64,000 nt of DNA, from positions 3,520,001 to 3,584,000 of the forward strand of contig CM000153.2 of assembly GCA_000004695.1 (NCBI GenBank), in the 5' to 3' direction. The notes below the pieces were generated by a model, which was given only the letters and a program-made list of their open reading frames with translations, was not told the origin of the DNA and made no database searches. A program made the position numbers and the translations under genes. Below, one piece after another: positions 13,548 to 54,095 of the stretch (the first letter of the stretch is position 1; every line of letters begins with the position of its first letter). Origin of the DNA: Dictyostelium discoideum. Taxonomy: Eukaryota.

Positions 13548-13579
<32 letters not shown>

Positions 13580-13627: not shown

Positions 13628-13665
<38 letters not shown>

Positions 13666-14521: not shown

Positions 14522-14582
<61 letters not shown>

Positions 14583-17963: not shown

Positions 17964-18009
<46 letters not shown>

Positions 18010-19191: not shown

Positions 19192-19222
<31 letters not shown>

Positions 19223-20349: not shown

Positions 20350-20380
<31 letters not shown>

Positions 20381-21097: not shown

Positions 21098-21132
<35 letters not shown>

Positions 21133-34544: not shown

Positions 34545-36771
34545 TTAAGTTACAACTCTCATTATACTAACAACGGGTTGATTAAGTACTTTTCTAATTG
34601 GTCCAAAAGCTGAAAAGAAAGAGAAAAACATTGAACAAATGAAAACTATTATAATTAATTGCCAAGGTAAAGTCATTGGAATTGGTAACATTGTAAATAA
34701 TTGTCTTTGAAGGATCATTGTGAAACCAACAGTTGAACCAATAAACATACCCAACATTGAGGAAGCCATAACCAATACGAAAGCTTCATAGACGTAAATT
34801 CTAATCATCCAAGATTTTGGTATTCCCAATGCACATAAAACACCAATTTCTTTAGTTTGTTCTAAAATATTTGAATATACAGAAGACATTAAAGAGAAGA
34901 AAGAGATGGTCATTGCTAAAACTGTAGTAAAACTGAAAAAGTATTGAATGATCACAGAGGCCGTTGCAAAAGGTTTAATCTTTTCATAGTAATCCAACAT
35001 ATCGAAATCCTCTCTAAGATTACCAATTAAAAAGCTATTTAAACGATTCTTTATTGATTCTACAGCATCTTTATCATCAGTATTCAATTTCAAAATCACT
35101 TGATTCATTGGAATTTCACGTACTGATGAGAAGATACTACTTGCATACGAGAGATAAGTTGGAAATGATACGATTGAATCTTGATTTGTAACTGATGGGA
35201 ATTTAGAGAATTTAAAAGATGGTGCGCTATCTAACATTGCCGATGGTTTAACTAAGTGTCTAGTGGAATTAACTGATGAAGCTTCACCAGATTTAATATT
35301 TAATTGTAATAGGAATGATTGATCAATTGAAGCACCAATAACATCGGTATACAATGAACCAATGATTATCTTTTGACCACTAGTAAATGAATAGATTTGC
35401 TCGGAAAGATATTGAATATCATTCAAACTATAATCAGGATCAGGAGCGATTGAGCTTGCCTTTAAGAATCCAGGTAAAGTAGTAGCGAATAAGTTTGGAG
35501 AAATCGCATACATATTGGTGCCATCACTATAGATATGACCAATGTTTGTAATTTGAGATTGTTGATATTGTTTAGTCATAATTGAGAAAGATGAAGACTC
35601 CCAAGCGTAATCTTCAATCTCTGGTTGATATTGTGAGAGGAATTGATCGATTAACAAAGTTGACTCTGGTTGAAAGAATGGTTCACTACTTTTCACACTT
35701 AGATAACTACCATAGCTTTGTTGAACTTGATAATTCATTGATGCCTGTTGCATAGAGTATGAAACATTGACAAAGATAATGAATGCCAATGAAACTGCAT
35801 ACATGATAGCGGTCTTTCTATTTCTAAGTTTATGAGCTATTAAATTCTTTATAACCAATGATTTGATAGCACGTTTCTCCCAAAAGAAGAATAGATTAAC
35901 TACAGCCCTCTCTAGAATCTGTTCAACATTTAATGCTAAACTAACCAACCCCAATAACATTGCAATCAACAACATGAAGAACATATTTAAAAGTAGTGTC
36001 AAATTGAATGAAAGCAACGACAATGGGAACACATAATAAATTCCAAAGCCAAACACAGACAACAATGAGCCAATCAATGCAACCGATGATGAGAAACTGT
36101 TATCTTCACTACGTTCAATTGAGATTTGTACAGCGGCAGTCTTTGAATGTTTCACATCTAAAGAGTCATGTAAATTCTTACCCAATGCATTACGAATTGG
36201 AAAGATTGCCGACGCTATTGGAATTATAATACCCAATGCCGATGCTAACAATATGGCTTCACCTGTTAATTTTGGTGGAATTGGTACGCCAGTAATTGAT
36301 TTGAAAATAGCAGAAACAATGAATCCAAATACTTGAGCAATTAATAAACCTAAACCCCAAGATGGTACACTATAGGAGAATGCTTTGAATAGCATCAATT
36401 GAATAATACCATTTCTTGTTGTACCAATCATTCTCATTACACCCATTTCAAAGGTTCTAGTCTCTACATCAATCATCAACAATGAATAAATCAATAGAAT
36501 CGATAAAAACAATAGAATGAATATGATTACATTCAAAATCAAACCTAAAAATAATGCTACATATCTATTCTTTGAAAGTTCACTCATCACTGGTAATTCT
36601 GATGAAAGTTCATTAAATCCAACTTTATATAAAATTTTATTTGAAAAATCTACAATCTTTTCTAAAATTACATCTTGATTTGAATTAATATATGGTGTTA
36701 ATCTTGATGGTGGTAAATTTATAATAACTTGTTTTGAATAATCATAAAAATTAATTTTTGAAATATAACTT

Positions 36772-36810
<39 letters not shown>

Positions 36811-37996
36811 AAAAATTAATATATATATATATAATTTTTCCCCGATTTTTTTTTAAAAAAAAAAAAAAACAATATTAAATAAACTTACTTTTTTGAATTA
36901 TAATTCATTTCTGGATCAAATTGTGTAATTAAAAATGGTAAAAATGTTGAATATTCAATGATTATGGAAGAACTTTGATCGGATGGGAACTTACCTTCAG
37001 AAGAAGAGAAAGTATCAGCAACAGTTGCTGTTGCATAAATTACGGGTATGGTTGAAGAGGTGATATTGGCATGAGTCCAAATTGATGATAGAAATGATCT
37101 AGTTGGAATACGAATGAATATTGTATCACCCTTTGAAATTGATAATTTATTTGCTAAATTCTCTTGAACGTAAACTGTACCCTGTGGTGGAGCATCCAAT
37201 TTCCAATCACGACCTAATCCCATCCTCTTTTCACGTGCAGTATCAATCACAAACATCGATGCTTTACTTGCTACTGAATTACTACAAACTGATTCGAAAC
37301 AGTATGGTTCACATTGATTTGGCTCATCATGATATTTCCAAAGATTATCATTTGGATTTGTGTTACCGTTTGGACACGACTTTGCACTAACCACACTAAC
37401 AGTCCCATCGACTCTTGGTGAATGGTAACTATCATCTACTTCTTCTAATTCATATTGATTATTATTATTATTATCATCAAAATAACTTCCATTTGGTTCT
37501 TTATATGTACCAGCTAATAACTCTGATAACATTGTATAATTTAATTGATCTGATAATGTCCATGAACCAGGTGTCAACACCATATCCATTTCACCAACAC
37601 TTGCTTCTGACAAACTTAGGAATACCACTGGTGTGTTGGTGATGATGGAAACACATAGTGACACTATAAACACTACCAAGAAGCATGCGGAAAATCCTAA
37701 CAAATAGGATAACTTATTACGTAGATTGATTCTTAATGTATGTGAAAAGAAATGTTTCCAATGGTAGAGTAATGTTCTAAACCAATTCACTATCTTCACT
37801 TTTACTGTATCACCATTTATTGCATTTGATATACCCTTGAATTTACCATAAGGTTTACTTGATATTTTCTTCTTAATTTTACCATTGTCATCATAATTAT
37901 CTTTATTTTTTAAAAATGTTTGTTCTTCTGAATTTTCTATAAATTCATCAAAACTATCGCTACTACTACTACTACCATTACTTTTATTTATTTTTA

Positions 37997-38036
<40 letters not shown>

Positions 38037-38120
38037 ATCTCTTGATTTTATAAAATCATCATCTTCTTCATCATCATTATTATTTATAGATTGATATTTA
38101 TTATTCCTTTTATTTGTCAT
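34545..38120 (-). CDS. Double MacB/FtsX-type permease-domain membrane protein, paralogue A, about 1151 aa. This is the divergent copy. Exons complement(36889..38120) and complement(34545..36768).
   Basis: A GTAAGT donor (36888) and a poly-A+G acceptor (36769) join in phase 2: ..EMNYNSK|N|YISKINFYDYSKQVII... The N-terminal module is ..KLSYLLGFSACFLVVFIVSL (TM1), a large ectodomain, then LYIAVTIN...; the FtsX core is LNMFFMLLIAMLL..MGVMRMIGTTRNGII. The C-terminal module is IKNLIAHKLRNRKTAIMYAVSLAFIIF (TM5), a second ectodomain, then the FtsX core EIGVLCALGIPKSW. Confidence 0.75.
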
Positions 38121-39920: not shown

Positions 39921-42900
39921 TTAATCTTTTAAAACTGTTATGATTGATTGTTTTAATAAATGTCTAATTGGAGAAATTACAGAAATGATTGAGACAATTA
40001 AAGATGAAATAAAGAGTATAGGAATTAATTCCCATTGAATTGAAAATGGTATAATTTGTTGATCCATCATTGATTGTTTTAATAGAATAATATAGCTAAT
40101 GAAAAGACCAATAATAATACCAATTATACAACTACCAAATGAAAGTGTAAAAGCTTCGATAATATAGATTTTATAGATTTTAAAATTTGATAAACCAATT
40201 GATCTTAGAATACCAATTTCTTTTGATTGATTTTTAATACTTGTAAACATTGATGAAATTAATGAAAATGATGATATTATTATAGAGATTACTGTTGCGA
40301 AATCAAACAATAATGAATTTAATTTATCTGAACTGTTTGATGAATCTTTATATCTAATTATATATGGACTTTCAGAGTTTTTATTAAATAAACAATTTTT
40401 TGAAATTTTATATTGTAAAGAATCGATTTTATCGTCATCTAATGATTTTGGTTTAATTAAAATTAAATTAACTGGTATATTCCTAACTGAATCAATATTA
40501 CCACCTGATAATCCGACATATGCTGGAAAAGAAGTAATTACACTTTGAGTAAGATCTTCATCCGGAATTTCAGATACACTAAATGTACCTGCAGTTTTTA
40601 AATATGCTAATGGTTTCACTATATTTCTACCCATCCAGTTGAATGTTACATTATGTTTTTGACTTCGACCTGATGAATAATCTATTCTTCTATAGTTATT
40701 AATTTCAATATAATTTGATAATATAAATTCATCTGGTCCACCTTTTTCATCAAGATACATTAATTTCTTTTGAGATTGAGTTAATATTAATTTATTCATT
40801 GAATCTTTGCTATATAAAATCGTTGATAAATCAGTCATATCACCATTTTGATTAAAATCAACATCTTTATCAGTTTTTAAATTTTTTGAAACTGATGAAA
40901 CTTGAAAATAATCTTCCATTATTTCACTGAAATAAGTTGGGCCAACTGCATGTAATGATGATTTTAATGTTACACTTCTAGCAAAATCAGAAACATATGA
41001 TTTCTTATCATCGGGTTGAGAAAATTCACTAAATTTCATTGATCTTAATGAATAACTATCTAATTCATCATTATTTTCATCATCTAATATACGATCTAAA
41101 CATAGAGTTATATTTGATAAATCTTCTCTGGTGATAAAGGAACCAGTTTCAATCTTTAAAAGTGAACCAAACGATTGTTTCTCATTAGCATTTGCAGTTT
41201 CAACTTGAATTAAATATAAACAATTAATTATAATTATTAAAGATACTGAAACACCAAACATAAACATTGTACTTTTATTCTTTTTCTTGTGAGAAATTAA
41301 ATTTTTATATAAAATTATTCTGATTATATTTTTTGCAAAAGGATCTATTAAAGTAATAATGTAAACTAATGTTTTTGAAATGATTAAATGGAAATTCATC
41401 ATTAAGAAAATTGCTGATATTAAAACTAAAATTAACAATCCAAATAATAATGCTAATAATGAACTAAAATTACCAGATAATAATAATTTTGGTAATAAAA
41501 TACAACCAACTATACCTAAAGCGCTTAATGACAAACCAATCCATGATAAATACTTTCTATATTCTGAATCAGTTGAATCTTTATCAATTGTTGTAATTTG
41601 ATGTGATGATGATATATTTGATCTACTAGTATCCAATTGCTCACCTAATGAAAAACTTAATGCTTTTCTAATTGGTAATATCAATGATACCATTGGTATT
41701 AGAAAACCAAGTAAAATTGAATAAACAATTGAATCTACTGTTAAATAATTTGAAATTTCATCTGAATTTGTAAAACGTTTTAATTGATCTATAATTATAA
41801 ATAAAAAGATTTGAGAAATTATTAAACCTAATATAATTGATGGGACTGTGAATATTATTGTTTTTGAAACTATTAGCTCGATGATGAAACTAAATTTAGC
41901 ACCTAACATTCTAAATACACCGTTATTAAATGTCATTGAATCCACATCAATCATTAATGTTGTATAAATTAAAAGAATTGATAATAAAAGGAATACAAAA
42001 ACTATTAAATTTAATAATTGACCTAAATTACTTGAAACTTCGTTACTCTTGTATAATTCAGTCATTATTGGTGTTGAAATATCAACTCTACCAACACCAA
42101 TTTTGTAAACTAATTTCGAGGCAACTTTATTTACTCTTTGTAAAGTTTTATCTAAATCTGTACCATAATACATTGGCAATCTGGGGGATGGAAATTTCAT
42201 AACTATATTTTCAACATATTCTTTTATATTTTTATTTTTCATTAAATCTACATTCCATGTTGGATTTACTTGTTCAACCATTGAATCATAGAATGAGTCA
42301 ATATCTATTAAAACTGATGGTATTATCTCACCCAATTCGAAACCTAGTTCAAATGGATTCTCTGTATTATTGAAAAATCCATTAACTTTTAATTTTGTTA
42401 TTATATATGGTGATTTTTCAATTTGAGTTGTTGAAATCATTGAATCTGTTAATAATGTTGATAATAATCTAACTGCTGGTACTATTATAAAAATTTCATC
42501 ACCAACATTTGCATGGATTGATTGAGCAAGTGATTCTATAATTAAACATGTTCCTTTTGGTTGTGATCCATAACCAAATGTTGATTTTATACCCATATCA
42601 TTCTCTTTTTTAAAATCTAGTAATTGGAAACCCATAAATACATGATTTCCTTCACCACTACATCTATTAATAAAACAAGTGCTCTCTGTGCAATTTAAAC
42701 CACTCCCATTTGAAAAGTATCTTGATTCAATATTATCTTGTACAACTTTTTCACAATAACTTACTGGATATCCATATGTATCTATAAAATTAAATCTTGG
42801 TGAATTATTTTTAAAAAAACTATTTTTATTACTAATACCACTACCACTATATAATCCATGGGTATTCTTTTCATCAGCTCCAACTCTATTATCATCTTTT

Positions 42901-43643
42901 ATTTCTCTAGTTGTATCATTTAAAATTTGATCAAATAATGTATAATTTAATCTTATAGTAAAACCTTTTTCTAAATCTATTGAAAGTTGTTGTTTTCCTG
43001 ATATTATTAAATCTATATGATTAGCATCAGAATCTGCTTTACTTAAAAATATTAATGATATATTTGATAATACTGATAAACCAGTTGCAACTAAAATTAC
43101 TACTAAAAAACATGATATAAAACCAATACTATAATTCAATTTACTCCTTTTAATACCATTTATTGAATATTTAATTATTGAAAACCATTCTCCAATAGTT
43201 GTATTAAATCCAATATTTGTTAAATTTATTTGAATCTTTTTTAAAATAAATCCAAAATATTTTAAAAATTCTAAACTTCCAAAAATTAATATTATAAAAA
43301 ATTCCAAAAAAACAAAAATTCCTTCAATTATTATTTTAAGTTTATTGAAAAAATAATTCTCTTTTTTAATATTATTATTATTATTATTATTTATATTATC
43401 ATCATAATAATAAATATTGTCACCTTGACAATCATTTTCAAGTGATCCTTTTAAAATTGATAATTCAATTGGGTCACATTCACCAACACTCTCTCTCCAT
43501 TTATTATAAAATTTTTTATTAATTAAAATTGGATCATTCTCATTCCTATTATTTATAGAACTCTTTAAAATTGAACTATTTTCATTGATGATACTATAAT
43601 CACCATCATCATTATCATTCCCACTTGATTCATAATTATACAT
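39921..43643 (-). CDS. Double MacB/FtsX-type permease-domain membrane protein, paralogue B. Single exon, 1240 aa.
   Basis: Uninterrupted ORF. Two tandem modules, each with an N-terminal Arg/Lys-rich amphipathic stretch plus TM (INGIKRSKLNYSIGFISCFLVVILVATG; RIILYKNLISHKKKNKSTMFMFGVSVSLIII), a large MacB-periplasmic-like ectodomain (GDEIFIIVPA..), and a 3-TM FtsX core with the signature loop (NNGVFRMLGAKFSF; EIGILRSIGLSNFKIYKIYIIEAFTLS). About 90% nucleotide identity to paralogues C and D. Confidence 0.8.
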   Translation of the reverse strand: MYNYESSGNDNDDGDYSIINENSSILKSSINNRNENDPILINKKFYNKWRESVGECDPIELSILKGSLENDCQGDNIYYYDDNINNNNNNNIKKENYFFNKLKIIIEGIFVFLEFFIILIFGSLEFLKYFGFILKKIQINLTNIGFNTTIGEWFSIIKYSINGIKRSKLNYSIGFISCFLVVILVATGLSVLSNISLIFLSKADSDANHIDLIISGKQQLSIDLEKGFTIRLNYTLFDQILNDTTREIKDDNRVGADEKNTHGLYSGSGISNKNSFFKNNSPRFNFIDTYGYPVSYCEKVVQDNIESRYFSNGSGLNCTESTCFINRCSGEGNHVFMGFQLLDFKKENDMGIKSTFGYGSQPKGTCLIIESLAQSIHANVGDEIFIIVPAVRLLSTLLTDSMISTTQIEKSPYIITKLKVNGFFNNTENPFELGFELGEIIPSVLIDIDSFYDSMVEQVNPTWNVDLMKNKNIKEYVENIVMKFPSPRLPMYYGTDLDKTLQRVNKVASKLVYKIGVGRVDISTPIMTELYKSNEVSSNLGQLLNLIVFVFLLLSILLIYTTLMIDVDSMTFNNGVFRMLGAKFSFIIELIVSKTIIFTVPSIILGLIISQIFLFIIIDQLKRFTNSDEISNYLTVDSIVYSILLGFLIPMVSLILPIRKALSFSLGEQLDTSRSNISSSHQITTIDKDSTDSEYRKYLSWIGLSLSALGIVGCILLPKLLLSGNFSSLLALLFGLLILVLISAIFLMMNFHLIISKTLVYIITLIDPFAKNIIRIILYKNLISHKKKNKSTMFMFGVSVSLIIIINCLYLIQVETANANEKQSFGSLLKIETGSFITREDLSNITLCLDRILDDENNDELDSYSLRSMKFSEFSQPDDKKSYVSDFARSVTLKSSLHAVGPTYFSEIMEDYFQVSSVSKNLKTDKDVDFNQNGDMTDLSTILYSKDSMNKLILTQSQKKLMYLDEKGGPDEFILSNYIEINNYRRIDYSSGRSQKHNVTFNWMGRNIVKPLAYLKTAGTFSVSEIPDEDLTQSVITSFPAYVGLSGGNIDSVRNIPVNLILIKPKSLDDDKIDSLQYKISKNCLFNKNSESPYIIRYKDSSNSSDKLNSLLFDFATVISIIISSFSLISSMFTSIKNQSKEIGILRSIGLSNFKIYKIYIIEAFTLSFGSCIIGIIIGLFISYIILLKQSMMDQQIIPFSIQWELIPILFISSLIVSIISVISPIRHLLKQSIITVLKD

Positions 43644-43651
43644 TTATCTGT

Positions 43652-43685
<34 letters not shown>

Positions 43686-43709
43686 GAAAATGGTTAGCAC
43701 TTCTTTCCG

Positions 43710-43743
<34 letters not shown>

Positions 43744-44496
43744 ACTGATTATTTTTTGACTTTTTTTTAAATTCTTTTATTTTTAATTCCCTAATTTTTT
43801 TTTTTTCTTTTATTTTTTTTTTTTCTATTTTTTTTTTTTTACTTTCTGATTATATTTTTTTTTTACTTTTTTTTTTTTTTACTTTCCGATTATTTTTTTT
43901 TTTTAAAAAAAAAAATAATTTATTGGTCTTTCAATTTTTTTTAAAAAGTAAAGAAAAAAAAAAAAAAAATAAGTGTAAAATTTAAAGTTTTACAAATGAT
44001 TGCAAATGTGTCTAGAAAATAAAAAAAAGAAAAAAAAAAAAAAAACGAAAATTAGTTTTGAAATAATCTTGTTTTTTAGGGATTTTCTTGAAAACACAAA
44101 AAACTATTAATCCCGAACCTTTAAAATTTTGAAAAATTAATTATTTTTTTTTTTTTTACTTTTATAATTATTGCTCCATTTTAAATCGATATTTTTATAT
44201 TTTTAGAAAAAAAAAAAAAAAATAAAAATAAAAGAATTAATAATGTAAAGAAAAAGCCAATTATAGATCAAGAGATTTGAGGGGAATGTTTTTTTTTTTT
44301 ATTATAATCATTTTTTTTATAAATTTCCTATTTTCTTGAAAAAAAAAAACTGCAAGGCACTGTAAAGAAAATTTTTTGGTCTGAGGAATAGTGTTTTATT
44401 TTTTTAATTTGGATTTTAATTAAAAAAAAATAAAAATAAAAATAAAAAAAATAATAAAAGCCTGGAAGAATTTGGACAATCACTTTGTGGTTCCAG

Positions 44497-44567
44497 AAAA
44501 AACTATATCATAAATTATAAAAAAAACCTCAGAAGATACAAGGAAATTCTTTGAAGATCCAATCACT

Positions 44568-44608
<41 letters not shown>

Positions 44609-44733
44609 ATAATTATCCATAAAATACAATAAAACAAATAAAATATTTTTATTCTTAATTTTTTGAAAATCTTCAAGGAATTTCCTTGTATCTTCTCAGA
44701 GGTTCTTTTTATAATTTATAATATAGTTTTTTT
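44497..44733. repeat. Inverted repeat of about 60-65 bp arms (about 44497-44558 and 44667-44733) flanking a spacer of about 108 bp that is mostly poly(A). It is a hairpin or MITE-like element.
   Basis: The left arm is aaaaaactatatcataaattataaaaaaaacctcagaagatacaaggaaattctttgaagat. The reverse complement of the right arm is aaaaaactatattataaattataaaaagaacctctgagaagatacaaggaaattccttgaagat, which differs by only about 5 mismatches. It lies immediately 3' of the paralogue C stop codon. Confidence 0.7.
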
Positions 44734-44750
44734 TTTTTTTTTTAAAGAAA

Positions 44751-47700
44751 TTAATCTTTTAAAACTGTAATAATTGGTTGTTTTAATAAATGTCTAATTG
44801 GAGAAAATACAGAAATGATTGAGACAATTAAAGATGAAATGAAGAGTATAGGAATTAATTCCCATTGAATTGAAAATGGTATAATTTGTTGATTCATAAC
44901 TGATTGTTCCAATAGAATTGTATAGCTAATGAAAAGACCAATAATAATACCAATTATACAACTACCAAATGAAAGTGTAAAAGCTTCGATAATATAGATT
45001 TTATAGATTTTAAAATTTGATAAACCAATTGATCTTAGAATACCAATTTCTTTTGATTGATTTTTAATACTTGTAAACATTGATGAAATTAATGAAAATG
45101 ATGATATAATCATTGAGAGTACAGTTGCAAAATCAAAGAATAATGAATTTAATTTATCTGAACTATTTGATGAATCTTTATATCTAATTATATATGGACT
45201 TTCAGAGTTTTTATTAAATAAACAAGTTTCTGAAATTTTATATTGTAATGAATCAATTAAATCGTCATCTAATGATTTTGGTTTTAATAAAATTACGCTA
45301 ACTGGTATATTCCTAACTGAATCAATATTACCACCTGATAATCCGACATATGCTGGAAAAGAAGTAATTACACTTTGAGTAAGATCTTCATCCGGAATTT
45401 CAGATACACTAAATGTACCTGCAGTTTTTAAATATGCTAATGGTTTCATTACATTTCGACCAATCCAATTGAAGGTTACATTTTGTTGTTGATTTTTACC
45501 AGATGGATCAATTTTTGTATAATTATTAATTTCAATATAATTTGATAAAAGAAATTCATCTGGACCACCTTTTTCATCAAGATACATTAATTTCTTTTGA
45601 GATTGAGTTAATATTAATTTATTCATTGAATCTTTACTATATAAAATCGTTGATAAATCAGTCATATCACCATTTTGATTAAAATCAACATCTTTATCAG
45701 TTTTTAAATTTTTTGAAACTGATGAAACTTGAAAATAATCTTCCATTAATTCACTGAAATAAGTTGGACCAACTGCCCATAGTGATGATTTTAAAGTTTT
45801 AGTTTTAGCAAGATCAGAAACAATTGATTTCTTATCAGGTTGAGAAAATTCACTAAATTCCATTGACCTTAATGAATAACTATCCAAACCATTATTTTCA
45901 TCATCGATTATTCGATCTAAACATTGAGTTATATTTGATAAATCTTCCCTTTTTATAAAGGTACTGGTTTCAATCTTTAAAAGTGAACCAAAGTATTGTT
46001 TATTTGAAGCATTTGAAATTTCAACTTGAACTAAAAATAAACAATTAATTATAATTATTAAAGATACTGAAACACCAAACATAAACATTGTACTTTTATT
46101 CTTTTTCTTGTGAGAAATTAAATTTTTATATAAAATTATTCTAATAATATTTTTTGCAAAAGGATCTATTAAAGTAATAAGGTAAACTAATGTTTTTGAA
46201 ATGATTAAATGGAAATTCATCATTAAGAAAATTGCTGATATTAAAACTAAAATTAACAATCCAAATAATAATGCTAATAATGAACTAAAATTACCAGATA
46301 ATAATAATTTTGGTAATAAAAAACAACCAACTATACCTAAGGCGCTTAATGATAAACCAATCAATGATACAAACTTTCTATATTCTGAATCAGTTGAATC
46401 TTTATCAATTGTTGTAATTTGATGTGATGATGATATATTTGATCTACTAGTATCCAATTGCTCACCTAATGAAAAACTTAATGCTTTTCTAATTGGTAAT
46501 ATCAATGATACCATTGGTATTAGAAAACCAAGTAAAATTGAATAAACAATTGAATCTACTGTTAAATAATTTGAAATTTCATCTGAATTTGTAAAACGTT
46601 TTAATTGATCTATAATTATAAATAAAAAGATTTGAGAAATTATTAAACCTAATATAATTGATGGGACTGTGAATATTATTGTTTTTGAAACTATTAGCTC
46701 GATGATGAAACTAAATTTAGCACCTAACATTCTAAATACACCGTTATTAAATGTCATTGAATCCACATCAATCATTAATGTTGTATAAATTAAAAGAATT
46801 GATAATAAAAGGAATACAAAAACTATTAAATTTAATAATTGACCTAAATTACTTGAAACTTCGTTACTCTTGTATAATTCAGTCATTACTGGTGTTGAAA
46901 TATCAACTCTACCAACACCAATTTTGTAAATTAATTTTGAAGTAAATTCACTAACTCTTTGTAAAGTTTTATCTAAATCTGTACCATAATACATTGATAA
47001 TCTTGGTGATGGAAATTTCATAACTATATATTCGACATATTCTTTAATATTTCTATTTTTCATTAAATCTACATTCCATGATGGATTTACTTGTTCAACC
47101 ATTGAATCATAGAATGAGTCAATATCTATTAATATCGATGGTATTGTTTCACCCAATTCGAAACCTAGTTCATATGGATTCTCTGTATTATTGAAAAATC
47201 CATTAACTTTTAATTTTGTTATTATATATGGTGATTTTTCAATTTGAGTTGTTGAAATCATTGAATCTGTTAATAATGTTGATAATAATTCCACTGCTGG
47301 TACTATTATAAAAATTTCATCACCAATCTTTAATTCTGTTGCTTTAGCCAATAATTCTACCATTAAACATGTACCCTTTGGTTGTGATCCATAACCAAAT
47401 GTTGATTTTATACCCATATCATTCTCTTTTTTAAAATCTAGTAATTGGAAACCCATATATACATGTTCTCCATCACCACCGCATCTATTAATAAAACAAG
47501 TACTCTCTGTGCAATTTAAATCACTACCATTTGAAAAGTACCTTGCTTCAATATTATTTTCAACAATGTTTTCACAATAATTTACGGGATATCCATATGT
47601 ATCTATCATATGAAATCTTGGTGAATTATTTTTAAAATTTTTTTTTTTACTTCCACCACTACTTGAACTCTGGATTATAGTTTCACTAGCTCCAGCACTA

Positions 47701-48383
47701 TTTTCACCTTTTATTTCTATATTCTCTATTTTTTCAAAATTTAAAATTGCATTATTTAAAATTTTATCAAATAATGTATAATTTAATCTTATAGTAAAAC
47801 CTTTATCTAAATCTATTGACTGATGTTGTTTTCCTGATATTATTAAATCTATATGATTAGCATCAGAATCTGCTTTACTTAAAAATATTAATGATATATT
47901 TGATAATACTGATAAACCAGTTGCAACTAAAATTACTACTAAAAAACATGATATAAAACCAATACTATAATTTAATTTACTCCTTTTAATACCATTTATT
48001 GAATATTTAATTATTGAAAACCATTCTTCAATAATTGTATTAAATCCAATATTTTTTAAATTTATTTTAATTTTTTTTAAAATTAATCCAAAAAATTTAA
48101 ATTCTTTTTTTAAAAATTCCAAAGCTCCAATAATTATTGAGGTTAATAATTTAAAAAAATATAAAATTCCTTTGATTATTATTTTAAATTTATTATTTTT
48201 TTTAAAATGATAATCGTTACTGTCACAATCTTCATCAAATGATGTTAAAATTGCATAATTTTTAGTGATGGAATTATCGTCATCATCTCCATCCTCATCT
48301 TCATTACAGTTGTCATTTTCACTTGGTCCATAAAAATTATGCATTTCTATTCTTTTTTTTATTTTAAAATTATTGGTTAGCAT
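44751..48383 (-). CDS. Double MacB/FtsX-type permease-domain membrane protein, paralogue C. Single exon, 1210 aa; the start may alternatively be the second Met, MHNFYG.
   Basis: Same architecture as paralogue B, with long stretches identical at the nucleotide level. One sign of this is that the spurious antisense ORFs 41380..41601, 46201..46422 and 50727..50948 encode nearly the same peptide. Differences cluster in the acidic N-terminus and in a patch of ectodomain 1 (..GENSAGASETIIQSSSSGG.. versus ..DDNRVGADEKNTHGLYSGSGISN..). Confidence 0.8.
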   Translation of the reverse strand: MLTNNFKIKKRIEMHNFYGPSENDNCNEDEDGDDDDNSITKNYAILTSFDEDCDSNDYHFKKNNKFKIIIKGILYFFKLLTSIIIGALEFLKKEFKFFGLILKKIKINLKNIGFNTIIEEWFSIIKYSINGIKRSKLNYSIGFISCFLVVILVATGLSVLSNISLIFLSKADSDANHIDLIISGKQHQSIDLDKGFTIRLNYTLFDKILNNAILNFEKIENIEIKGENSAGASETIIQSSSSGGSKKKNFKNNSPRFHMIDTYGYPVNYCENIVENNIEARYFSNGSDLNCTESTCFINRCGGDGEHVYMGFQLLDFKKENDMGIKSTFGYGSQPKGTCLMVELLAKATELKIGDEIFIIVPAVELLSTLLTDSMISTTQIEKSPYIITKLKVNGFFNNTENPYELGFELGETIPSILIDIDSFYDSMVEQVNPSWNVDLMKNRNIKEYVEYIVMKFPSPRLSMYYGTDLDKTLQRVSEFTSKLIYKIGVGRVDISTPVMTELYKSNEVSSNLGQLLNLIVFVFLLLSILLIYTTLMIDVDSMTFNNGVFRMLGAKFSFIIELIVSKTIIFTVPSIILGLIISQIFLFIIIDQLKRFTNSDEISNYLTVDSIVYSILLGFLIPMVSLILPIRKALSFSLGEQLDTSRSNISSSHQITTIDKDSTDSEYRKFVSLIGLSLSALGIVGCFLLPKLLLSGNFSSLLALLFGLLILVLISAIFLMMNFHLIISKTLVYLITLIDPFAKNIIRIILYKNLISHKKKNKSTMFMFGVSVSLIIIINCLFLVQVEISNASNKQYFGSLLKIETSTFIKREDLSNITQCLDRIIDDENNGLDSYSLRSMEFSEFSQPDKKSIVSDLAKTKTLKSSLWAVGPTYFSELMEDYFQVSSVSKNLKTDKDVDFNQNGDMTDLSTILYSKDSMNKLILTQSQKKLMYLDEKGGPDEFLLSNYIEINNYTKIDPSGKNQQQNVTFNWIGRNVMKPLAYLKTAGTFSVSEIPDEDLTQSVITSFPAYVGLSGGNIDSVRNIPVSVILLKPKSLDDDLIDSLQYKISETCLFNKNSESPYIIRYKDSSNSSDKLNSLFFDFATVLSMIISSFSLISSMFTSIKNQSKEIGILRSIGLSNFKIYKIYIIEAFTLSFGSCIIGIIIGLFISYTILLEQSVMNQQIIPFSIQWELIPILFISSLIVSIISVFSPIRHLLKQPIITVLKD

Positions 48384-49135
48384 TTTTTTTTTTTTCTTAT
48401 CTAAAACTTAGATGTTATTTTTATTTTTATTTTTATTTTTATTTTGAAAGAAAATAATAATTTATAAAGTCTTTTCTTTTTTTTTTTATAATTAAAAAAA
48501 GAAAATAAATACAGCTTAAATTTTCATTTTATGTTGCTGACATTGCTTCATTGTAAACCTATCTTCATTTTCAAAAAAAGAAAAGGTGGCACTTCAAATA
48601 TTTTATTTTATTATAAAGAAAAAGATAAAAAACTATTGTCTGTCTGGCTTTTTTTAAGAACTAAGAAAAGTTTTTTGAAAATTTGGTTGATCTAGCCTTT
48701 TTTTTTTTTGTTATTTTTTGGTTTTTATGATAACGATCGAGAAAAAAAAAGTTGTTTATTTTCTAAAAAAAAAAAAAAAAACCAGGTGAGTCACAAGAAA
48801 ATTATGTTTGTGTGAAGGGAGTCCCTAAGAAAATAAAAGTTAAAAAAAAGAGGCGACAAACCCACCAGCGCGGCACAAAATTACTTTTCACTTTAGTTTT
48901 TTTGAAATTTGCATTTTTTTTTGATAAAGATTCAGAAAAAAAAAAATGTTTTTAAAAAAAAAAATGAAATGAAAATAAAAAAAATATATAAAAGCCTGGT
49001 AGAATTTGTATAATCAATAAAAGAAGTTCAGTTACATATAATGAAAAAATTATTTTTAAAACTTTTTACTTTTATTTTTAATTTTATTATTATTTTGATT
49101 TTAAAAAAAAAAAATTATTATCTGATTGTCTTAGG

Positions 49136-49171
<36 letters not shown>

Positions 49172-49276
49172 ATCACCCTTGTTATGATTGATTTCGATTC
49201 GATTCGATTTGATTTAATTTGATATGATTTATTATTATATTATTACTATTTTTATTATTTTTATTTTAAAATAAAA

Positions 49277-52200
49277 TTAATCTTTTAAAACTGTAATAAT
49301 TGGTTTCTTTAATAAATGTCTAATTGGGGAAACTACAGAAATGATTGAGACAATTAAAGATGAAATGAAGAGTATAGGAATTAATTCCCATTGAATTGAA
49401 AATGGTATAATTTGTTGATTCATAACTGATTGTTCTAATAGAATTGTATAGCTAATGAAAAGACCAATAATAATACCAATTATACAACTACCAAATGAAA
49501 GTGTAAAAGCTTCAAAAATATAGATTTTATAGATTTTAAAATTTGATAGACCAATTGATCTTAGAATACCAATTTCTTTTGATTGATTTTTAATATTTGT
49601 AAACATTGATGAAATTAATGAAAATGATGATATAATCATTGAGAGTACTGTTGCAAAATCAAAGAATAATGAATTTAATTTATCTGAACTGTTTGATGAA
49701 TCTTTATATCTAATTATATAAGGACCTGTTGATTTTAGATTAGATAAACATTTTTGACTAATTTTTAATCTTAATGAATCAATTAAATCATAATCTAATG
49801 ATTTTGGTTTAATTAAAATTACACTAACTGGTATATTCCTAACCGAGTCGATATTACCACCTGATAACCCAACATATGCTGGAAATGAGGCTATTACACT
49901 TTGAGTTGCACCTTTATCTGGAATCTCAGATACACTAAATGTACCTGCAGTTTTTAAATATGCTAATGGTTTCATTAAATAACGACCCATCCAATTTAAT
50001 GTTACATTTTGTTGTTGATTTTTGCCAGATGGATCAATTTTTGTATAATTATTAATTTCAATATAATTTGATAATAAATATTCATCACTACCACCTTCTT
50101 GATCAAGATACAATAATTTCTTTTGAGATTGAGTTAATATTAATTTATTCATTGAATCTTTACTATATAAAATCGTTGATAAATCAGTCATATCACCATT
50201 TTGATTAAAATCAACATCTTTATCAGTTTTTAAATTTTCTGAAACTGATGAAACTTGAAAATAATCTTCCATTAATTCACTGAAATAAGTTGGACCAACT
50301 GCAAATAATGATGATTTTAAAATTCTAGTTCTACCAAGATCAGAAACCGTTGATTTCTTATTATCAGGTTGAGAAAACTCACTAAACTCCATTGATCTTA
50401 ATGAATAACTATCTAAACCATTATTATCATCCATTAAACCATCTAAACATTGGGTAATATGTGATAAATCTTCTCTAAGTAAAAATGTTTCTGTTTCAAT
50501 CTTTAAAAGTGAACCATAGTATTGTTTTCTAGAAGCATTTGCAGTTTCAACTTGAACTAAATATAAACAACTAATTGTAATAATTAAAGATACAGAAATA
50601 CCAAACATAAACATTGTACCTTTATTCTTTTTCTTGTGAGAAATTAAATTTTTATATAAAATTCTTCTAATAATATATTTTGCACCAGGATCGATTAAAG
50701 TAATAAGGTAAACTAATGTTTTTGAAATGATTAAATGGAAATTCATCATTAAGAAAATTGCTGATATTAAAACTAAAATTAACAATCCAAATAATAATGC
50801 TAATAATGAACTGACATCACCGGATAATAATAATTTTGGTAATAAAAAACATACCACTATACCAAAAGCACTAATTGATAAACCAATCAATGATACAGAC
50901 TTTTTAAATTCTGCATCTTTTGAACCTTTATCAATTGTTGTAATTTGATGTGATGATATTTTTGATCTACTAGTATCCAATTGTTGATTTAATGAAAAAC
51001 TTAATGCTTTTCTAATTGGTAATATCAATGATACCATTGGTATTAGAAAACCAAACAAAATTGAAAATAGAATTGAATTTACTGTTAAATACTTTGAAAT
51101 ATCTGCTGAATTTGATATACTCTTTAATTGATCTACGACTATAACTAAAAAGATTTGTGAAATTATTAAACCTAATATAATTGATGGTATTGTGAAAATT
51201 ATTGTTTTTGAAACTATTAGCTCGATGATGAAACTAAATTTAGCACCTAACATTCTAAATACACCGTTATTAAATGTCATTGAATCCACATCAATCATTA
51301 ATGTTGTATAAATTAAAAGAATTGATAATAAAAGGAATACAAAAACTATAATATTTAATAATTGACCTAAATTATTTGAAACATCTTTGCTCTTGTATAA
51401 TTCAGTCATTACTGGTGTTGAAATATCAACTCTACCAACACCAATTTTGTAAATTAATTTTGAGCAATAATCACCCACACGTTGTAAAGTTTTATCTAAA
51501 TCTGTACCATAATACATTGATAATCTTGGTGATGGAAATTTCATAACTATATATTCGACATATTCTTTTAAATTTCTATTTTTCATTAAATCTACATTCC
51601 ATGTTGGATTTACTTGTTCAACCATTGAATCATAGAATGAGTCAATATCAATTAATATAGATGGTATTGTTTCACCCAATTCAAAACCTAATTCATAACC
51701 TAATTCGTATGGATTCTCTGTATTATTGAAAAATCCATTAACTTTTAATTTTGTTATTATATATGGTGATTTTTCAATTTGAGTTGTTGAAATCATTGAA
51801 TCTGTTAATAAAGTTGATAATAATTTAACTGCTGGTACTTTTAAAAAAATTTCATCACCAATCTTTAATTCTATTCTTTTAGCCAATGATTCTATCATTA
51901 AACATGTACCCTTTGGTTGTGATCCATAACCAAATGTTGATTTTATACCCATATCATTCTCTTTTTTAAAATCTAGTAATTGGAAACCCATATATACATG
52001 TTCTCCATCACCACCACATCTATTAATAAAACAAGTACTCTCTGTGCAATTTAAATCACTACCATTTGAAAAGTACCTTGCTTCAATATTATTTTCAACA
52101 ATGTTTTCACAATAATTTACGGGATATCCAAATGCATCTATCATATGAAATCTTGGTGAATTATAATCAAAATTATTAAAACCACTACTATCACCACCAA

Positions 52201-52685
52201 TAAATAAACTATTGAAACTATTAGCTTCATTCAATTCTATTAATTTTTCAAAATTTAAAGTTGCATCATTTAAAAGTTGATCAATTAATGTATAATTTAA
52301 TCTGACATCAATAATTTCACCTAAATCTATTGATTGTTGTTTGCCTGATATTATTAAATCAATACCATAGGCATCAGAATCTGCTTTACTTAAAAATATT
52401 AATGATATATTTGATAATACTGATAAACCAGTTGCAACTAAAATTACTACTAAAAAACATGATATAAAACCAATACTATAATTCAATTTACTCCTTTTAA
52501 TACCATTTATTGAATATTTAATTATTGAAAACCATTCTTCAGTAATTTTAAAAAATCCAATATTTCTTAAAATTAATTTAATCTTTTTTAAAATTATTTT
52601 AATCCTTTTTAAAATTGATTTAAAAAATTCTAAAATTATTATTATTATTTTTATTATTATTATTTTAAATTTTTTTATATATAAA

Positions 52686-52716
<31 letters not shown>

Positions 52717-53032
52717 CATCTTCATCATTATTATTATTATTATTATCATTTGATGATTTTTTAAAATCTGATAATTCAACTTGACTATATTCACCAACAC
52801 TATCTCTCCAATTATTATAATATTTTTTGTCACTAATTAAAATTGTATCATTTTCATTATTTTCACTCCTTTTCATTGCACTTGTTAATATTGAATTATT
52901 ATTGTTGAGGTTGTTTTTATCCTCATCGTCATCATCGTCGTTATTATTATTGTTATTGTTTTCTTCATAATTATTTACACTATCTTCATTATCGTTAGCA
53001 CTTATTCCAAAATAATTATCATTTTGAACCAT
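49277..53032 (-). CDS. Double MacB/FtsX-type permease-domain membrane protein, paralogue D. Single exon, 1251 aa.
   Basis: Uninterrupted ORF with the same two-module FtsX architecture. The N-terminal extension is extremely D/N-rich (NNNNNNNDDDDDEDKNN...). The FtsX loops are NNGVFRMLGAKFSF and EIGILRSIGLSNFKIYKIYIFEAFTLS. Confidence 0.8.
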
Positions 53033-53038
53033 TCCTAT

Positions 53039-53078
<40 letters not shown>

Positions 53079-54095
53079 CAAGGTTATTATTTATTTTTTT
53101 TACAACAAGGTTATTTTTTTATTTTTATTTTTTATTTTATTAAAATTTTTTTAATATTTCTTACCTATCTTTTTAATATTTTTTTTTTTTTTTTTTTACA
53201 ACAAGGTAATTTTTTTTTTTTTTTTTTTTTTTTTTTTCAAATAAATTAAAATTTAAAATGATTATTAGAATATTATTTTAAAAAAAGATATATAAAAAAA
53301 AAAAAAATTTAAAAATAAATTTCAATAAAAAATATCAAAAAAAAAAAAAAATAGAATAATTTTAAATAATTGAAAGAAAATGTGTGAAGGGGTTTTTTTT
53401 CTTTTTAATTAAATAAAAAGTTAAAAAGAAAAAAAATAAATATTAGAAAAAAAAAAAAAAAACGGTGATTGTGAGGTTTTACAAAAAAAAGCAAAACGAA
53501 AATTAAATTAAAAAAATAAAAAAAAAAATTAAAGTCGAAATTTATTTTCACATAACCTTATTTCCAGGGTTCTTTGAGAACAAATTAAAAAAAACAAATC
53601 GGCTTGTAACCCCGTAATACACTCGCACTGTTTCGGTCTAAAAATGTCAAAAAAAAAAAAAAAAAAAAAAAAATTAAAAAAATATTAAAAAAAAAAAATA
53701 TTGAAAAAAAAAATTTGTTTTGAACTTTTACACCAATTGCGTCATTTTAAATCGATTTCCAGTTATAATTTTTTTTTTTTTTAATCTTTGGAATTGTTTA
53801 TCATAAGTAATAAAAAAAAATTATGAAGAATAAATAAAAGAAAAAAGAAAAAAATTTCTAATTCATTTTTTTTTTTTTTTTTTTTATTTATTTTTAATAT
53901 GGAGCACCAAAAACGATATAAAATATAAAAAAAAGTGAATTTAACCATTCCTTTTTTTTTTTTTTAATTTTCAAAGAAATTATTTAAGATTATAATTTTT
54001 TTTTTTTTTATTTTAAATTCACAACAACTAACAAACCTTTTTTTTTCGGGGATACAATTTTTTTTTTTTTATTTACAAATTTGGTTGTTGAATTC

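What the first reader, a model, noticed from the sequence alone, without database searches (positions are those of the whole stretch)
39921..53700. Concerted evolution of three near-identical permease paralogues, with divergence confined to N-termini and one ectodomain patch
Paralogues B, C and D share long runs of nucleotide identity, including third positions and parts of their 3' flanks. For example aaagcctgg[a/t]agaatttg... is found at 44457 and 48991, and attttaaatcgat is found at 44190 and 53745. This points to very recent duplication or ongoing gene conversion. The differences are concentrated in the acidic/Asn-rich cytoplasmic N-terminal tails and in a short patch of the first extracellular domain: NFEKIENIEIKGENSAGASETIIQSSSSGGSKKKNFKNN versus TREIKDDNRVGADEKNTHGLYSGSGISNKNSFFKNN versus NFEKLIELNEANSFNSLFIGGDSSGFNNFDYN. 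Homogenised cores with localised hypervariable ectodomain patches are what one expects for a surface protein family under diversifying selection, for example in self/non-self or ligand recognition.
Basis: seen in the sequence. Interest (0 to 1): 0.55.

Follow-up and report, generated by a model that had tools for sequence, protein, structure and literature searches.

The report
Tandem permease genes swapping sequence patches
Three neighbouring membrane-protein genes of the social amoeba Dictyostelium discoideum are old duplicates that keep copying short stretches of DNA onto each other, an ordinary way for tandem gene families to evolve, and the data give no significant sign that they form a hypervariable recognition system.

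Summary
The window is D. discoideum AX4 chromosome 4. The finding covers three intronless, tandem, minus-strand genes, B, C (DDB_G0285667) and D. They encode about 1,200-aa proteins with two FtsX domains. A fourth, divergent paralogue, A, lies beside them.

The quoted runs of identity are real, but the genes are only 87-92% identical in nucleotides. Divergence is not confined to the N-tails and one patch.

Comparison with five other discoideum-clade genomes and D. citrinum shows an old triplication. Positional orthologues are 92-96.5% identical. Quartet sites support orthology 40:5.

The array is partly homogenised. At 86 sites the paralogues agree within a species and differ between species, and these sites cluster. 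AX4 B and C share a 516-nt identical tract in which their orthologues differ by 3-4.5% (permutation p≤0.0002). C and D share a 235-nt tract. One lineage carries a D/C fusion, and the middle copy is a pseudogene in four genomes.

The "hypervariable" patch is a low-complexity loop. It is specific to each paralogue and largely conserved among orthologues. Its dN/dS is not significantly above 1.

Verdict: this is routine partial concerted evolution combined with birth-and-death. The self/non-self reading is not supported.

The parts
34545..38120 (-). Paralogue A. It has two exons (36885-38120 and 34545-36590) separated by an intron of about 0.3 kb. It has the same architecture as B-D but is divergent, constrained and not involved in the exchanges.
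   Evidence: Pfam FtsX hit. 25-32% aa identity to B over the full length. Orthologue dN/dS is 0.02-0.07 (exon 1 up to 0.2 in two lineages), and dS of 0.11-0.23 serves as the local baseline. GC3 is 0.19-0.27, against 0.11 for B-D.
39921..43643 (-). Paralogue B. It encodes a 1240-aa intronless protein with two FtsX domains and about 10 TM segments.
   Evidence: Positional orthologues in 5 genomes are 91.6-96.1% nt identical.
44751..48383 (-). Paralogue C = DDB_G0285667. The annotated start is M14, at 48344. It is a mosaic of B-type and D-type segments.
   Evidence: 100% match to DDB_G0285667. The B/D mosaic at 160 diagnostic sites is shared with the FIW orthologue. It is a pseudogene in FIR, FIY and FIZ, and the middle copy CIT_2 in D. 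citrinum is also one.
49277..53032 (-). Paralogue D, 1251 aa. It is the most distinct of the three, and its orthologue is recognisable in D. citrinum (CIT_1).
   Evidence: D orthologues are 94-96.5% identical, and D is 87.4% identical to CIT_1. CIT_1 carries the D state at most of the 160 B/D diagnostic sites.
41552..42067 (-). B side of the recent AX4-lineage B<->C conversion tract. It is 516 nt, 100% identical to C, and encodes TM2-TM4 and the following loop.
   Evidence: Paralogue distance is 0.0% against 3-4.5% to either orthologue. 62 consecutive polymorphic sites are concordant, p<=0.0002. NJ bootstrap is 100% for AX4_B+AX4_C.
46373..46888 (-). C side of the same B<->C conversion tract.
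47361..47595 (-). C side of the C<->D conversion tract. It is 235 nt with one mismatch and lies in ECD1. C carries D-type derived states, which suggests the direction D->C.
   Evidence: Distance is 0.5% against 4.5% to orthologues. p=0.0004. Site display.
51896..52130 (-). D side of the C<->D tract.
42804..42935 (-). Variable ECD1 patch of B (aa 237-280), a low-complexity loop that ends at the conserved NSPRF motif.
   Evidence: Paralogue divergence is 24-33% nt against 4-9% among orthologues. This window gives 83-100% bootstrap for orthology.
47625..47771 (-). Variable ECD1 patch of C (aa 205-253).
   Evidence: It falls in the lowest-confidence coil of the AF2 model (model residues 104-159, pLDDT 23-33).
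52160..52285 (-). Variable ECD1 patch of D (aa 250-291). It is conserved in D orthologues and recognisable in D. citrinum.
   Evidence: dN/dS is 0.30-0.40 among D orthologues.
43128..43643 (-). N-terminal tail of B (aa 1-172). It is acidic, Asn-rich and low-complexity, and it is specific to the paralogue. The D tail (52475-53032) is related. The C tail (47964-48344) lacks a block of about 60 aa.
   Evidence: Alignments. dN/dS is about 0.3-1.1. Tails are conserved among positional orthologues.
40969..41267 (-). Second island of retained paralogue identity in B (aa 793-892: TM7 plus the start of ECD2). The equivalent regions are C 45796-46088 and D 50322-50614.
   Evidence: NJ bootstraps are 98-99% for orthology (D+CIT_1, B, C) in alignment columns 2900-3200. 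No species-pattern sites occur in columns 2700-3000. Coordinates.
44414..44482 (-). Short block shared by the 3' flanks of C and D (the partner is at 48950-49016). It is a remnant of the duplicated unit and has no counterpart downstream of B.
   Evidence: 87% identity over 70 nt. Alignment.

Best explanation
The region is a tandem array of paralogous genes for an uncharacterised family of eukaryotic membrane proteins. Each protein has two FtsX/MacB-type permease units. Each unit has a large loop, presumed extracellular, after its first TM helix. There are about 10 TM helices in all.

B, C and D are an old triplication. It predates the split between the D. discoideum clade and D. citrinum. The array evolves by birth-and-death combined with partial concerted evolution, as follows.

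1. Short-tract interlocus gene conversion, with tracts of roughly 0.2-0.7 kb, repeatedly overwrites parts of one copy with a neighbour. This erases mainly silent differences within a genome. At least two events are specific to the AX4 lineage: B<->C (516 nt) and D->C (235 nt). Independent events are visible in other lineages.

2. Unequal crossing-over changes copy number. One lineage has a D/C fusion, and C itself is a B/D mosaic.

3. The middle copy is dispensable and decays repeatedly.

4. Paralogue-specific sequence survives in islands: the N-tails, the start of ECD1 with its low-complexity loop, the TM4-TM7 region, and the start of ECD2. It also survives as scattered replacement differences. 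Possible reasons are that divergence and indels there block heteroduplex formation, or that selection removes converted alleles.

Shown here: the age of the duplication, the mosaic, the conversion tracts, the copy-number change and the pseudogenes. Inferred: the molecular mechanism (homologous recombination or mismatch-repair-mediated conversion), the topology of the loops, and the role of selection in keeping the paralogues distinct.
For: Identity of the locus: DDB_G0285667, AX4 chromosome 4; FtsX x2.

Old duplication: the same array order is present in 5 further genomes and D. citrinum. Positional orthologues are 92-96.5% identical, against 87-91% for paralogues. In quartets, D=CIT_1|B=CIT_2 occurs at 40 sites against 5 for the cross pattern, p=8e-8.

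Homogenisation:
- The species pattern B=D|CIT_1=CIT_2 occurs at 86 sites against 5, p=4e-20. These sites are clustered along the gene (32 runs observed, 55.6 expected, p=5e-5).
- Paralogue dS in the gene body is 0.11-0.19, against 0.34 for the D/CIT_1 orthologues.
- Window NJ trees switch between orthology (98-100%) and species grouping (94-100%).

Recent events: tracts are nearer to the paralogue than to any orthologue. Permutation p<=0.0002 and 0.0004. Private derived sites are shared by same-genome paralogues at 41 sites in 13 pairs, against 20 sites in 79 cross-genome non-orthologous pairs.

Unequal crossover and decay.

The tracts are not an assembly artefact. The independent AX2-like assembly has identical B, C and D.

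Retained differences are mostly replacements. 35 of 40 orthology sites fall at codon positions 1 or 2, while 52 of 86 species sites fall at position 3 (Fisher p=3e-7).
Against: Over most of their length each AX4 copy is closest to its positional orthologue. Homogenisation is therefore partial and slow, and 'concerted evolution' overstates it if taken to mean whole genes.

CIT_2, which anchors the quartet test, is a pseudogene with a 199-nt deletion, and CIT_3 is only partly sampled. The donor of the B=C tract could not be determined.

The excess of replacement changes among retained differences could reflect a burst of change after duplication rather than selection against conversion. It is also partly biased by the requirement that sites be fixed in 11 sequences.

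No formal likelihood tests for recombination or selection (GARD, codeml) could be run.
Confidence: 0.85

Rival explanations
1. Diversifying selection. The ECD1 patch and N-tails are hypervariable recognition determinants of a surface-protein family, for example for self/non-self or ligand discrimination, and the cores are homogenised around them.
For: Patch dN/dS between paralogues is 1.5-3.2. Between B or C orthologues it is 1.1-3.6. The patch lies in a loop presumed extracellular. Retained paralogue differences are mostly replacements.
Against: None of the patch dN/dS values differs significantly from 1 (Fisher p 0.055-1.0, about 20 synonymous sites). The D patch is under purifying selection (0.30-0.40) and is conserved into D. 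citrinum. Patches are specific to paralogues rather than to strains. Orthologue dS equals the baseline of the neighbouring gene A. The patch is low-complexity with indels in multiples of three, and the equivalent loop in paralogue A is also Asn-rich. The C copy is a pseudogene in FIR, FIY and FIZ, and CIT_2 in D. citrinum is also one.
Confidence: 0.08
2. Very recent duplication. The three copies arose recently, and the identical runs are simply stretches that have not yet diverged, with no conversion involved.
For: Runs of identity up to 516 nt include third positions. Overall dS between paralogues is only 0.11-0.19.
Against: The three-copy array, with the same paralogue-specific tails and patches, exists in lineages separated by dS 0.1-0.34. 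160 B/D differences are fixed in all lineages. The orthology pattern outnumbers the cross pattern 40:5. The identical tracts are lineage-specific, and orthologues differ by 3-4.5% within them.
Confidence: 0.02
3. Purifying selection at the nucleotide level. The TM-coding segments are so constrained that the paralogues stay identical without any exchange.
For: The longest tracts cover conserved TM-coding sequence. Several windows with few fixed B/D differences are also conserved in protein.
Against: In the same columns orthologues differ at silent sites: 3-4.5% within the clade and 10-14% to D. citrinum. The permutation test uses only polymorphic sites. 52 of 86 species-pattern sites are third positions.
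Confidence: 0.03
4. Assembly artefact. Collapse or mis-joining of near-repeats in the AX4 reference created chimeric identical tracts.
For: Tandem 4-5 kb repeats at about 90% identity were hard to assemble from Sanger-era data.
Against: An independent Nanopore+Illumina assembly of an AX4-like lab strain (locus L001) is colinear over 23.6 kb at 99.8% identity, and its B, C and D are 100% identical to AX4's (PMC12745789 for methods). Analogous tracts occur in other assemblies.
Confidence: 0.02

Closest known systems
Partial concerted evolution / birth-and-death of tandem paralogues by interlocus gene conversion and unequal crossing-over. Textbook cases are primate gamma-globin HBG1/HBG2, RHD/RHCE and the red/green opsin arrays (from general knowledge, not tested here).
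   Same: Tandem same-strand copies a few kb apart. Short conversion tracts are superimposed on older divergence. Segments group by species while other segments group by paralogue. Copy number changes through hybrid genes. Pseudogenes persist in the array. Replacement differences are retained at particular sites.
   Different: Nothing differs in kind. This case lies in an extremely AT-rich protist genome (GC3 about 0.11) and shows no sign of GC-biased conversion. The protein family has no known function.
Type VII ABC-transporter permeases of the FtsX/MacB superfamily (MacB, LolC/E/F, FtsX, YtrF, BceB-like and ADOP duplicated permeases).
   Same: The Pfam FtsX C-terminal domain occurs twice (E about 1e-32). 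Hydropathy fits TM1, a large loop, then TM2-4, repeated twice with two linker helices. The only PDB sequence hits are YtrF, LolF, LolE and MacB. Weak NCBIfam hits include LolCE, ADOP and MacB.
   Different: The proteins are eukaryotic. No fused nucleotide-binding domain is present and no ABC ATPase gene lies in the window. No MacB_PCD domain was detected. All scores are far below the family cut-offs. The N-tails are long and low-complexity. The family is widespread in protists and some fungi and is unstudied.
The tgrB1/tgrC1 allorecognition locus of Dictyostelium (PMC12745789, PMC11088635).
   Same: Same organism. Both are membrane proteins encoded in a locus that undergoes duplication, recombination and gene turnover.
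   Different: By those papers' account the tgr genes are extremely polymorphic among strains. Here, orthologue divergence equals the local background, and the variable patch is specific to paralogues rather than to strains. The protein fold is unrelated (FtsX).

Membership tests
FtsX/MacB-type (type VII ABC) permease superfamily | C-terminal FtsX domain (PF02687: TM2-TM4 bundle) | tested here: met
   Two stretches per protein, E=1.6e-32 to 3.3e-30, 105-113 bits against a cut-off of 25.5. A also matches.
FtsX/MacB-type (type VII ABC) permease superfamily | Four-TM unit with a large extracytoplasmic domain between TM1 and TM2 | tested here: inconclusive
   Hydropathy peaks fit TM1 / about 350 aa / TM2-4, then two linker TMs, then TM7 / about 295 aa / TM8-10. 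The AF2 model is too poor to confirm this (pLDDT 52.9). The sidedness of the loops was not tested.
FtsX/MacB-type (type VII ABC) permease superfamily | MacB-like periplasmic core domain (PF12704) | tested here: not met
   No Pfam hit at E<=0.01 in B, C, D or A. Distant bacterial hits do carry it.
FtsX/MacB-type (type VII ABC) permease superfamily | Fused or partner ABC ATPase (nucleotide-binding domain) | tested here: not met
   No NBD is present in the proteins, and no ABC_tran gene was found among the ORFs of the 64-kb window that were scanned. A partner encoded elsewhere in the genome cannot be excluded with these tools.
Named subfamilies (LolCE, MacB, FtsX, ADOP duplicated permease) | Score at or above the curated NCBIfam cut-off | tested here: not met
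   Best scores are 17-37 bits, against cut-offs of 250-966.
Concerted evolution by interlocus gene conversion | The duplication predates the speciation used for comparison | tested here: met
   The orthology pattern occurs at 40 sites against 5 for the cross pattern. Synteny and paralogue-specific tails and patches are shared across genomes.
Concerted evolution by interlocus gene conversion | Paralogues within a genome are more alike than orthologues in at least part of the gene | tested here: met
   86 species-pattern sites. CIT_1+CIT_2 bootstrap is 94-100% in 6 of 12 windows. Body dS between paralogues is 0.11-0.19, below the 0.34 of the D/CIT_1 orthologues. This does not hold for the whole gene.
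Concerted evolution by interlocus gene conversion | Statistically significant conversion tracts | tested here: met
   Home-made GENECONV-type permutation test: B-C p<=0.0002 (62 sites), C-D p=0.0004, B-D p about 0.01. The GENECONV and GARD programs themselves were not run.
Birth-and-death evolution | Copy-number change and pseudogenes among related genomes | tested here: met
   D/C fusion in FIR. Multiple frameshifts in the FIR, FIY and FIZ middle copies, and a 199-nt deletion in CIT_2.
Hypervariable recognition locus under diversifying selection (tgrB1/C1-like) | Polymorphism among strains far above the genomic background | tested here: not met
   Orthologue dS is 0.10-0.22, equal to neighbour A at 0.11-0.23. 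Body dN/dS is 0.07-0.27. Only deep lineages were available, with no population sample.
Hypervariable recognition locus under diversifying selection (tgrB1/C1-like) | dN/dS significantly above 1 in the variable region | tested here: inconclusive
   Point estimates are 0.3-3.6. No Fisher test is significant (p 0.055-1.0), and the alignment there is gapped.

The most novel reading that the evidence does not exclude
The paralogue-specific residues survive because selection removes converted alleles. There are 63 such residues conserved between B and D across species, and 35 of the 40 retained nucleotide differences fall at codon positions 1 or 2. On this reading B and D are functionally specialised members of an unstudied eukaryotic FtsX-type family with no known ATPase partner. 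They might have different extracellular ligands or cytoplasmic partners, and the array would be a natural experiment mapping the specificity-determining positions of that family.
Probability: 0.25. Interest if true: 0.4.

Novelty: new member of a known kind. Interest (0 to 1): 0.25.

Why it matters
The result matters mainly as a clean negative. Repeats that look striking in raw sequence turn out to reflect a standard evolutionary process, not a new recognition system.

It adds a well-resolved example of partial gene conversion, unequal crossing-over and repeated pseudogenisation in a very AT-rich protist genome.

It also flags a widespread eukaryotic family of duplicated FtsX-type membrane proteins whose function is unknown. 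The conserved differences between paralogues could guide experiments on that family.

Tried and rejected
1. BLAST of whole units including flanks was swamped by poly-A/T low-complexity matches. Only the CDS, about 20 nt of 3' flank and one block of about 70 nt are truly homologous. Alignment of the 400-nt upstream regions was uninformative apart from a GCTAACCA motif shared by B and C.

2. AlphaFold2 on C aa 100-1210 with a 17-row alignment gave a poor model (pLDDT 52.9, pTM 0.44, ECD2 about 25). No fold search was run. The only thing taken from the model is that the patch lies in the least confident coil.

3. The word-indexed homologue searches returned only 11-16 hits. The exhaustive search was needed to see the wider family.

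4. Literature searches for the gene IDs and for 'Dictyostelium + FtsX' found nothing relevant. The B/D neighbour IDs used in those searches were guesses.

5. The donor of the B=C tract could not be assigned from diagnostic sites.

6. GC-biased gene conversion was considered. GC3 of B-D is 0.11, the same as unrelated neighbouring genes, so there is no signal.

7. No tRNA genes were found. Tandem repeats are only low-complexity A/T tracts.

8. The reverse-strand 64-90-aa ORFs inside each copy were rejected as by-products of AT-rich coding sequence.

Full report
WHAT THE WINDOW IS

The window is extremely AT-rich, with 14-30% GC. Its genes are eukaryotic: RhoGAP, a GH20 hexosaminidase, BCCIP, a syndetin/Vps54-like protein, a counting-factor-associated CfaA-like protein, a GSAP-like protein and Nop. 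The ORF at 44751-48383 is 100% identical to DDB_G0285667 of Dictyostelium discoideum AX4, on a 5.45-Mb contig that is chromosome 4.

The finding covers three intronless minus-strand ORFs:
- B, 39921-43643, 1240 aa.
- C, 44751-48383, 1210 aa. The annotated start is M14, at 48344.
- D, 49277-53032, 1251 aa.

A fourth paralogue, A, lies next door at 34545-38120. It has two exons and is only 25-32% identical in protein.

Each protein has two Pfam FtsX domains (E about 1e-32). Hydropathy fits TM1, a loop of about 350 aa (ECD1), TM2-4, two linker helices, TM7, a loop of about 295 aa (ECD2) and TM8-10. The only solved relatives by sequence are YtrF, LolF, LolE and MacB, and they match only the last TM bundle. 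NCBIfam scores are far below every cut-off.

No nucleotide-binding domain is present, and no ABC ATPase gene was found among the window ORFs scanned. An exhaustive search finds 271 representatives at E<=1e-30 with the same length of about 1,000-1,100 aa. They include Polysphondylium, Rhizamoeba, Paratrimastix, Fabomonas and the fungus Paraphysoderma. I found no paper on these genes.

CHECKING THE OBSERVATION

The quoted strings are there. One coordinate is off by 12 nt. The 13-mer occurs more often than chance predicts, with 0.01 matches expected.

Long exact runs exist between the copies:
- B=C: 516 nt (41552-42067 / 46373-46888), plus several runs of 106-187 nt.
- C=D: 120 nt and 114 nt, separated by a single mismatch.
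- B=D: up to 168 nt.

However, the genes are not near-identical. CDS identity is 92.4%, 87.3% and 89.9% in nucleotides, and 79-87% in amino acids. Many 40-codon windows outside the N-tails and the patch are only 80-90% identical.

Flank homology is slight. It amounts to about 20 nt after the stop codon plus one block of about 70 nt at 87% identity. That block lies about 270-330 nt downstream of C and of D (44414-44482 / 48950-49016) and has no counterpart after B.

COMPARATIVE DATA

Exact-protein look-ups retrieved the syntenic locus from six other assemblies:
- An AX4-like lab strain, 99.8% identical over 23.6 kb, with B, C and D identical to AX4's.
- Two divergent D. discoideum isolates, labelled FIW and FIR here.
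- Two 'cf. discoideum' lineages, labelled FIY and FIZ.
- D. citrinum, labelled CIT.

By their names and project, these appear to be the Nanopore+Illumina genomes of PMC12745789. That paper treats some of the isolates as possible cryptic species.

Paralogue A gives the local baseline. Its dS relative to AX4 is 0.11-0.23 and its dN/dS is mostly 0.02-0.07.

THE TRIPLICATION IS OLD

Every genome has the order CfaA-like gene, D, (C), B, A. The N-tail types are the same in each: MVQNDNYF... for D, MHNFYGPSEND... for C and MYNYESSGND... for B. The patch types are also the same.

Over the whole gene, positional orthologues are 92-96.5% identical, against 87-91% for paralogues within AX4. In most 200-column windows the nearest relative of each AX4 copy is its orthologue. 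160 nucleotide sites are fixed for different states in all B and all D orthologues, and D. citrinum CIT_1 carries the D state at most of them.

In quartets (B, D, CIT_1, CIT_2) the orthology pattern D=CIT_1|B=CIT_2 occurs at 40 sites. The cross pattern occurs at 5 (binomial p=8e-8). 'Very recent duplication' is therefore rejected.

THE COPIES ARE NEVERTHELESS PARTLY HOMOGENISED

The species pattern B=D|CIT_1=CIT_2 occurs at 86 sites, against 5 for the cross pattern (p=4e-20). Species-pattern and orthology-pattern sites are spatially segregated, with 32 runs observed against 55.6 expected (p=5e-5).

Windowed NJ trees switch between two states:
- Orthology at 98-100% in alignment columns 1100-1400, which cover the start of ECD1 and the patch, and in columns 2900-3200, which cover TM7 and the start of ECD2.
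- Species grouping (CIT_1+CIT_2) at 94-100% in columns 1400-2300, 3200-3800 and 4100-4260.

Synonymous divergence between paralogues in the gene body is 0.11-0.19. That is about half of the 0.34 between the D/CIT_1 orthologues, even though the paralogues are older.

SOME EVENTS ARE RECENT AND LINEAGE-SPECIFIC

In the 516-nt tract, AX4 B and C are identical, while each differs by 3-4.5% from its own orthologues. AX4_B+AX4_C receives 100% bootstrap there. A permutation test restricted to polymorphic sites gives p<=0.0002, with 62 consecutive concordant sites.

The C/D tract gives p=0.0004. In it, C carries D-type derived states, which suggests the direction D->C.

Derived states private to exactly two sequences are shared by same-genome paralogues at 41 sites over 13 pairs. 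For cross-genome non-orthologous pairs the figure is 20 sites over 79 pairs. That is more than a ten-fold excess, and it is seen in AX4, FIY and FIZ.

COPY NUMBER ALSO CHANGES

C is a mosaic of B-type and D-type blocks, and AX4 and FIW share that mosaic. FIR has one gene fewer. Its first copy is D-type for the first 55 diagnostic sites and C-type thereafter, which indicates a D/C fusion by unequal crossing-over.

The middle copy is repeatedly broken:
- FIR has nine 1-nt insertions and one 2-nt insertion in the gene body.
- FIY has eight frameshifting deletions.
- FIZ has three frameshifts.
- CIT_2 has a 199-nt deletion.

B, D and A are intact in the same assemblies, which argues against sequencing error as the cause.

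THE 'HYPERVARIABLE PATCH'

The patch occupies B aa 237-280, C aa 205-253 and D aa 250-291. It is an S/G/N/K-rich, indel-prone stretch that ends at a conserved NSPRF motif. The equivalent loop of paralogue A is also Asn-rich.

The patch differs by 24-33% (nt) between paralogues but only by 4-9% between orthologues. The D version is recognisable in D. citrinum.

dN/dS in the patch is 1.5-3.2 between paralogues, 1.1-3.6 for B and C orthologues, and 0.30-0.40 for D orthologues. With only about 20 synonymous sites and a gapped alignment, none of these differs significantly from 1 (Fisher p 0.055-1.0).

In the poor AF2 model (pLDDT 52.9) the patch falls in the least confident coil. This is only weak support for a flexible loop.

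The N-tails behave similarly. They are low-complexity and paralogue-specific, with dN/dS about 0.3-1.1. Orthologue dS in B-D equals the baseline from A, so polymorphism is not elevated.

WHAT RETAINS PARALOGUE IDENTITY

63 amino-acid positions are fixed differently in all B and in all D plus CIT_1. They are spread over every domain: N-tail 13, ECD1 10, TM2-4 5, the two cytoplasmic loops 5+2, TM5-6 3, TM7 3, ECD2 15 and TM8-10 7. They are not confined to the patch.

Of the 40 orthology sites, 35 lie at codon positions 1 or 2. Of the 86 species sites, 52 lie at position 3 (Fisher p=3e-7). This fits two readings. Conversion may sweep silent differences while selection keeps paralogue-specific residues. 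Alternatively, there may have been a burst of replacement change after the duplication. The data do not separate the two readings. The requirement that sites be fixed also biases the count towards slow-evolving positions.

Body dN/dS among orthologues is 0.07-0.13 for D, 0.10-0.22 for B and 0.27 for C, against 0.02-0.07 for A. A also has a higher GC3, 0.19-0.27 against 0.11. Taken together, A looks like the constrained copy, B-D look more relaxed, and C looks dispensable.

VERDICT

Real identity tracts exist, well beyond chance, but the genes are about 90% identical rather than near-identical, and divergence is not confined to two places.

The alternative of recent duplication is refuted. The biological reading, diversifying selection on a hypervariable recognition patch, is not supported.

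This is a new, well-documented example of a known kind of evolution: partial concerted evolution together with birth-and-death in a tandem array. The protein family itself is uncharacterised and widespread in eukaryotes. That is the more interesting loose end, but it is not what the finding claimed.

Noticed in passing
window 34545-38120 (-): Paralogue A has one intron (about 36591-36884, a length that keeps the reading frame), whereas B, C and D are intronless. A also has a much higher GC3 (0.19-0.27 vs 0.11) and much stronger purifying selection (dN/dS mostly 0.02-0.07). This suggests that A is the main, better-expressed copy.
   Followed up: partly
window 48345-48383 (-): The 13 codons upstream of the annotated start of C (MLTNNFKIKKRIE) align with the untranslated upstream sequence of B (shared GCTAACCA motif). 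The mechanical ORF start is therefore probably 5'UTR, and the annotated M14 start is right.
   Followed up: partly
loci L003 4988-8830, L004 5100-8980, L005 5277-8718, L006 15053-18714: The middle copy of the array is broken in four of the six other genomes. One of the four is a D/C fusion gene in L003 that carries nine 1-nt insertions at non-homopolymer sites. This is an unusual mutation spectrum and may deserve a check against raw reads.
   Followed up: partly
whole family (proteins P0020-P0166): Full-length homologues of about 1,000-1,100 aa at 25-34% identity occur in distant eukaryotes: Polysphondylium, Rhizamoeba, Paratrimastix, Fabomonas and Paraphysoderma. Others occur in unnamed metagenome contigs, some of which a source labels 'ABC-type antimicrobial peptide transport system permease'. 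This is an old, unstudied eukaryotic family of duplicated FtsX permeases with no fused ATPase.
   Followed up: partly
window 41380-41601, 46201-46422, 50727-50948 (+): The same 73-aa reverse-strand ORF (MIKWKFIIKKIADIK...) appears inside each of B, C and D. It is most likely a by-product of the AT-rich coding sequence on the other strand.
   Followed up: no
window 104-134 aa of B (about 43242-43334), equivalent in C and D: An extra hydrophobic or Ile/Lys-rich segment lies between the low-complexity N-tail and TM1 (IIIEGIFVFLEFFIILIFGSLEFL in B, KIIIIKIIIIILEFFKSIL in D). If it spans the membrane, the N-tail would be on the opposite side from the one assumed.
   Followed up: no
window 6000-14000 and 18000-22000: Long stretches of about 15% GC contain few ORFs. 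They separate a split protein-kinase gene with a KA1 domain (3048-5270, -), a CBS-domain fragment (12408-12797, -), a GH20 hexosaminidase (13871-15958, +) and a G-alpha subunit exon (22404-22967, +).
   Followed up: no
loci L002-L005 vs window: Genomes deposited as 'D. discoideum' differ from AX4 by dS 0.11-0.23 and by about 9-10% nucleotide divergence across this 24-kb locus. This is far more than typical within-species variation and fits the cryptic-species suggestion in PMC12745789.
   Followed up: partly
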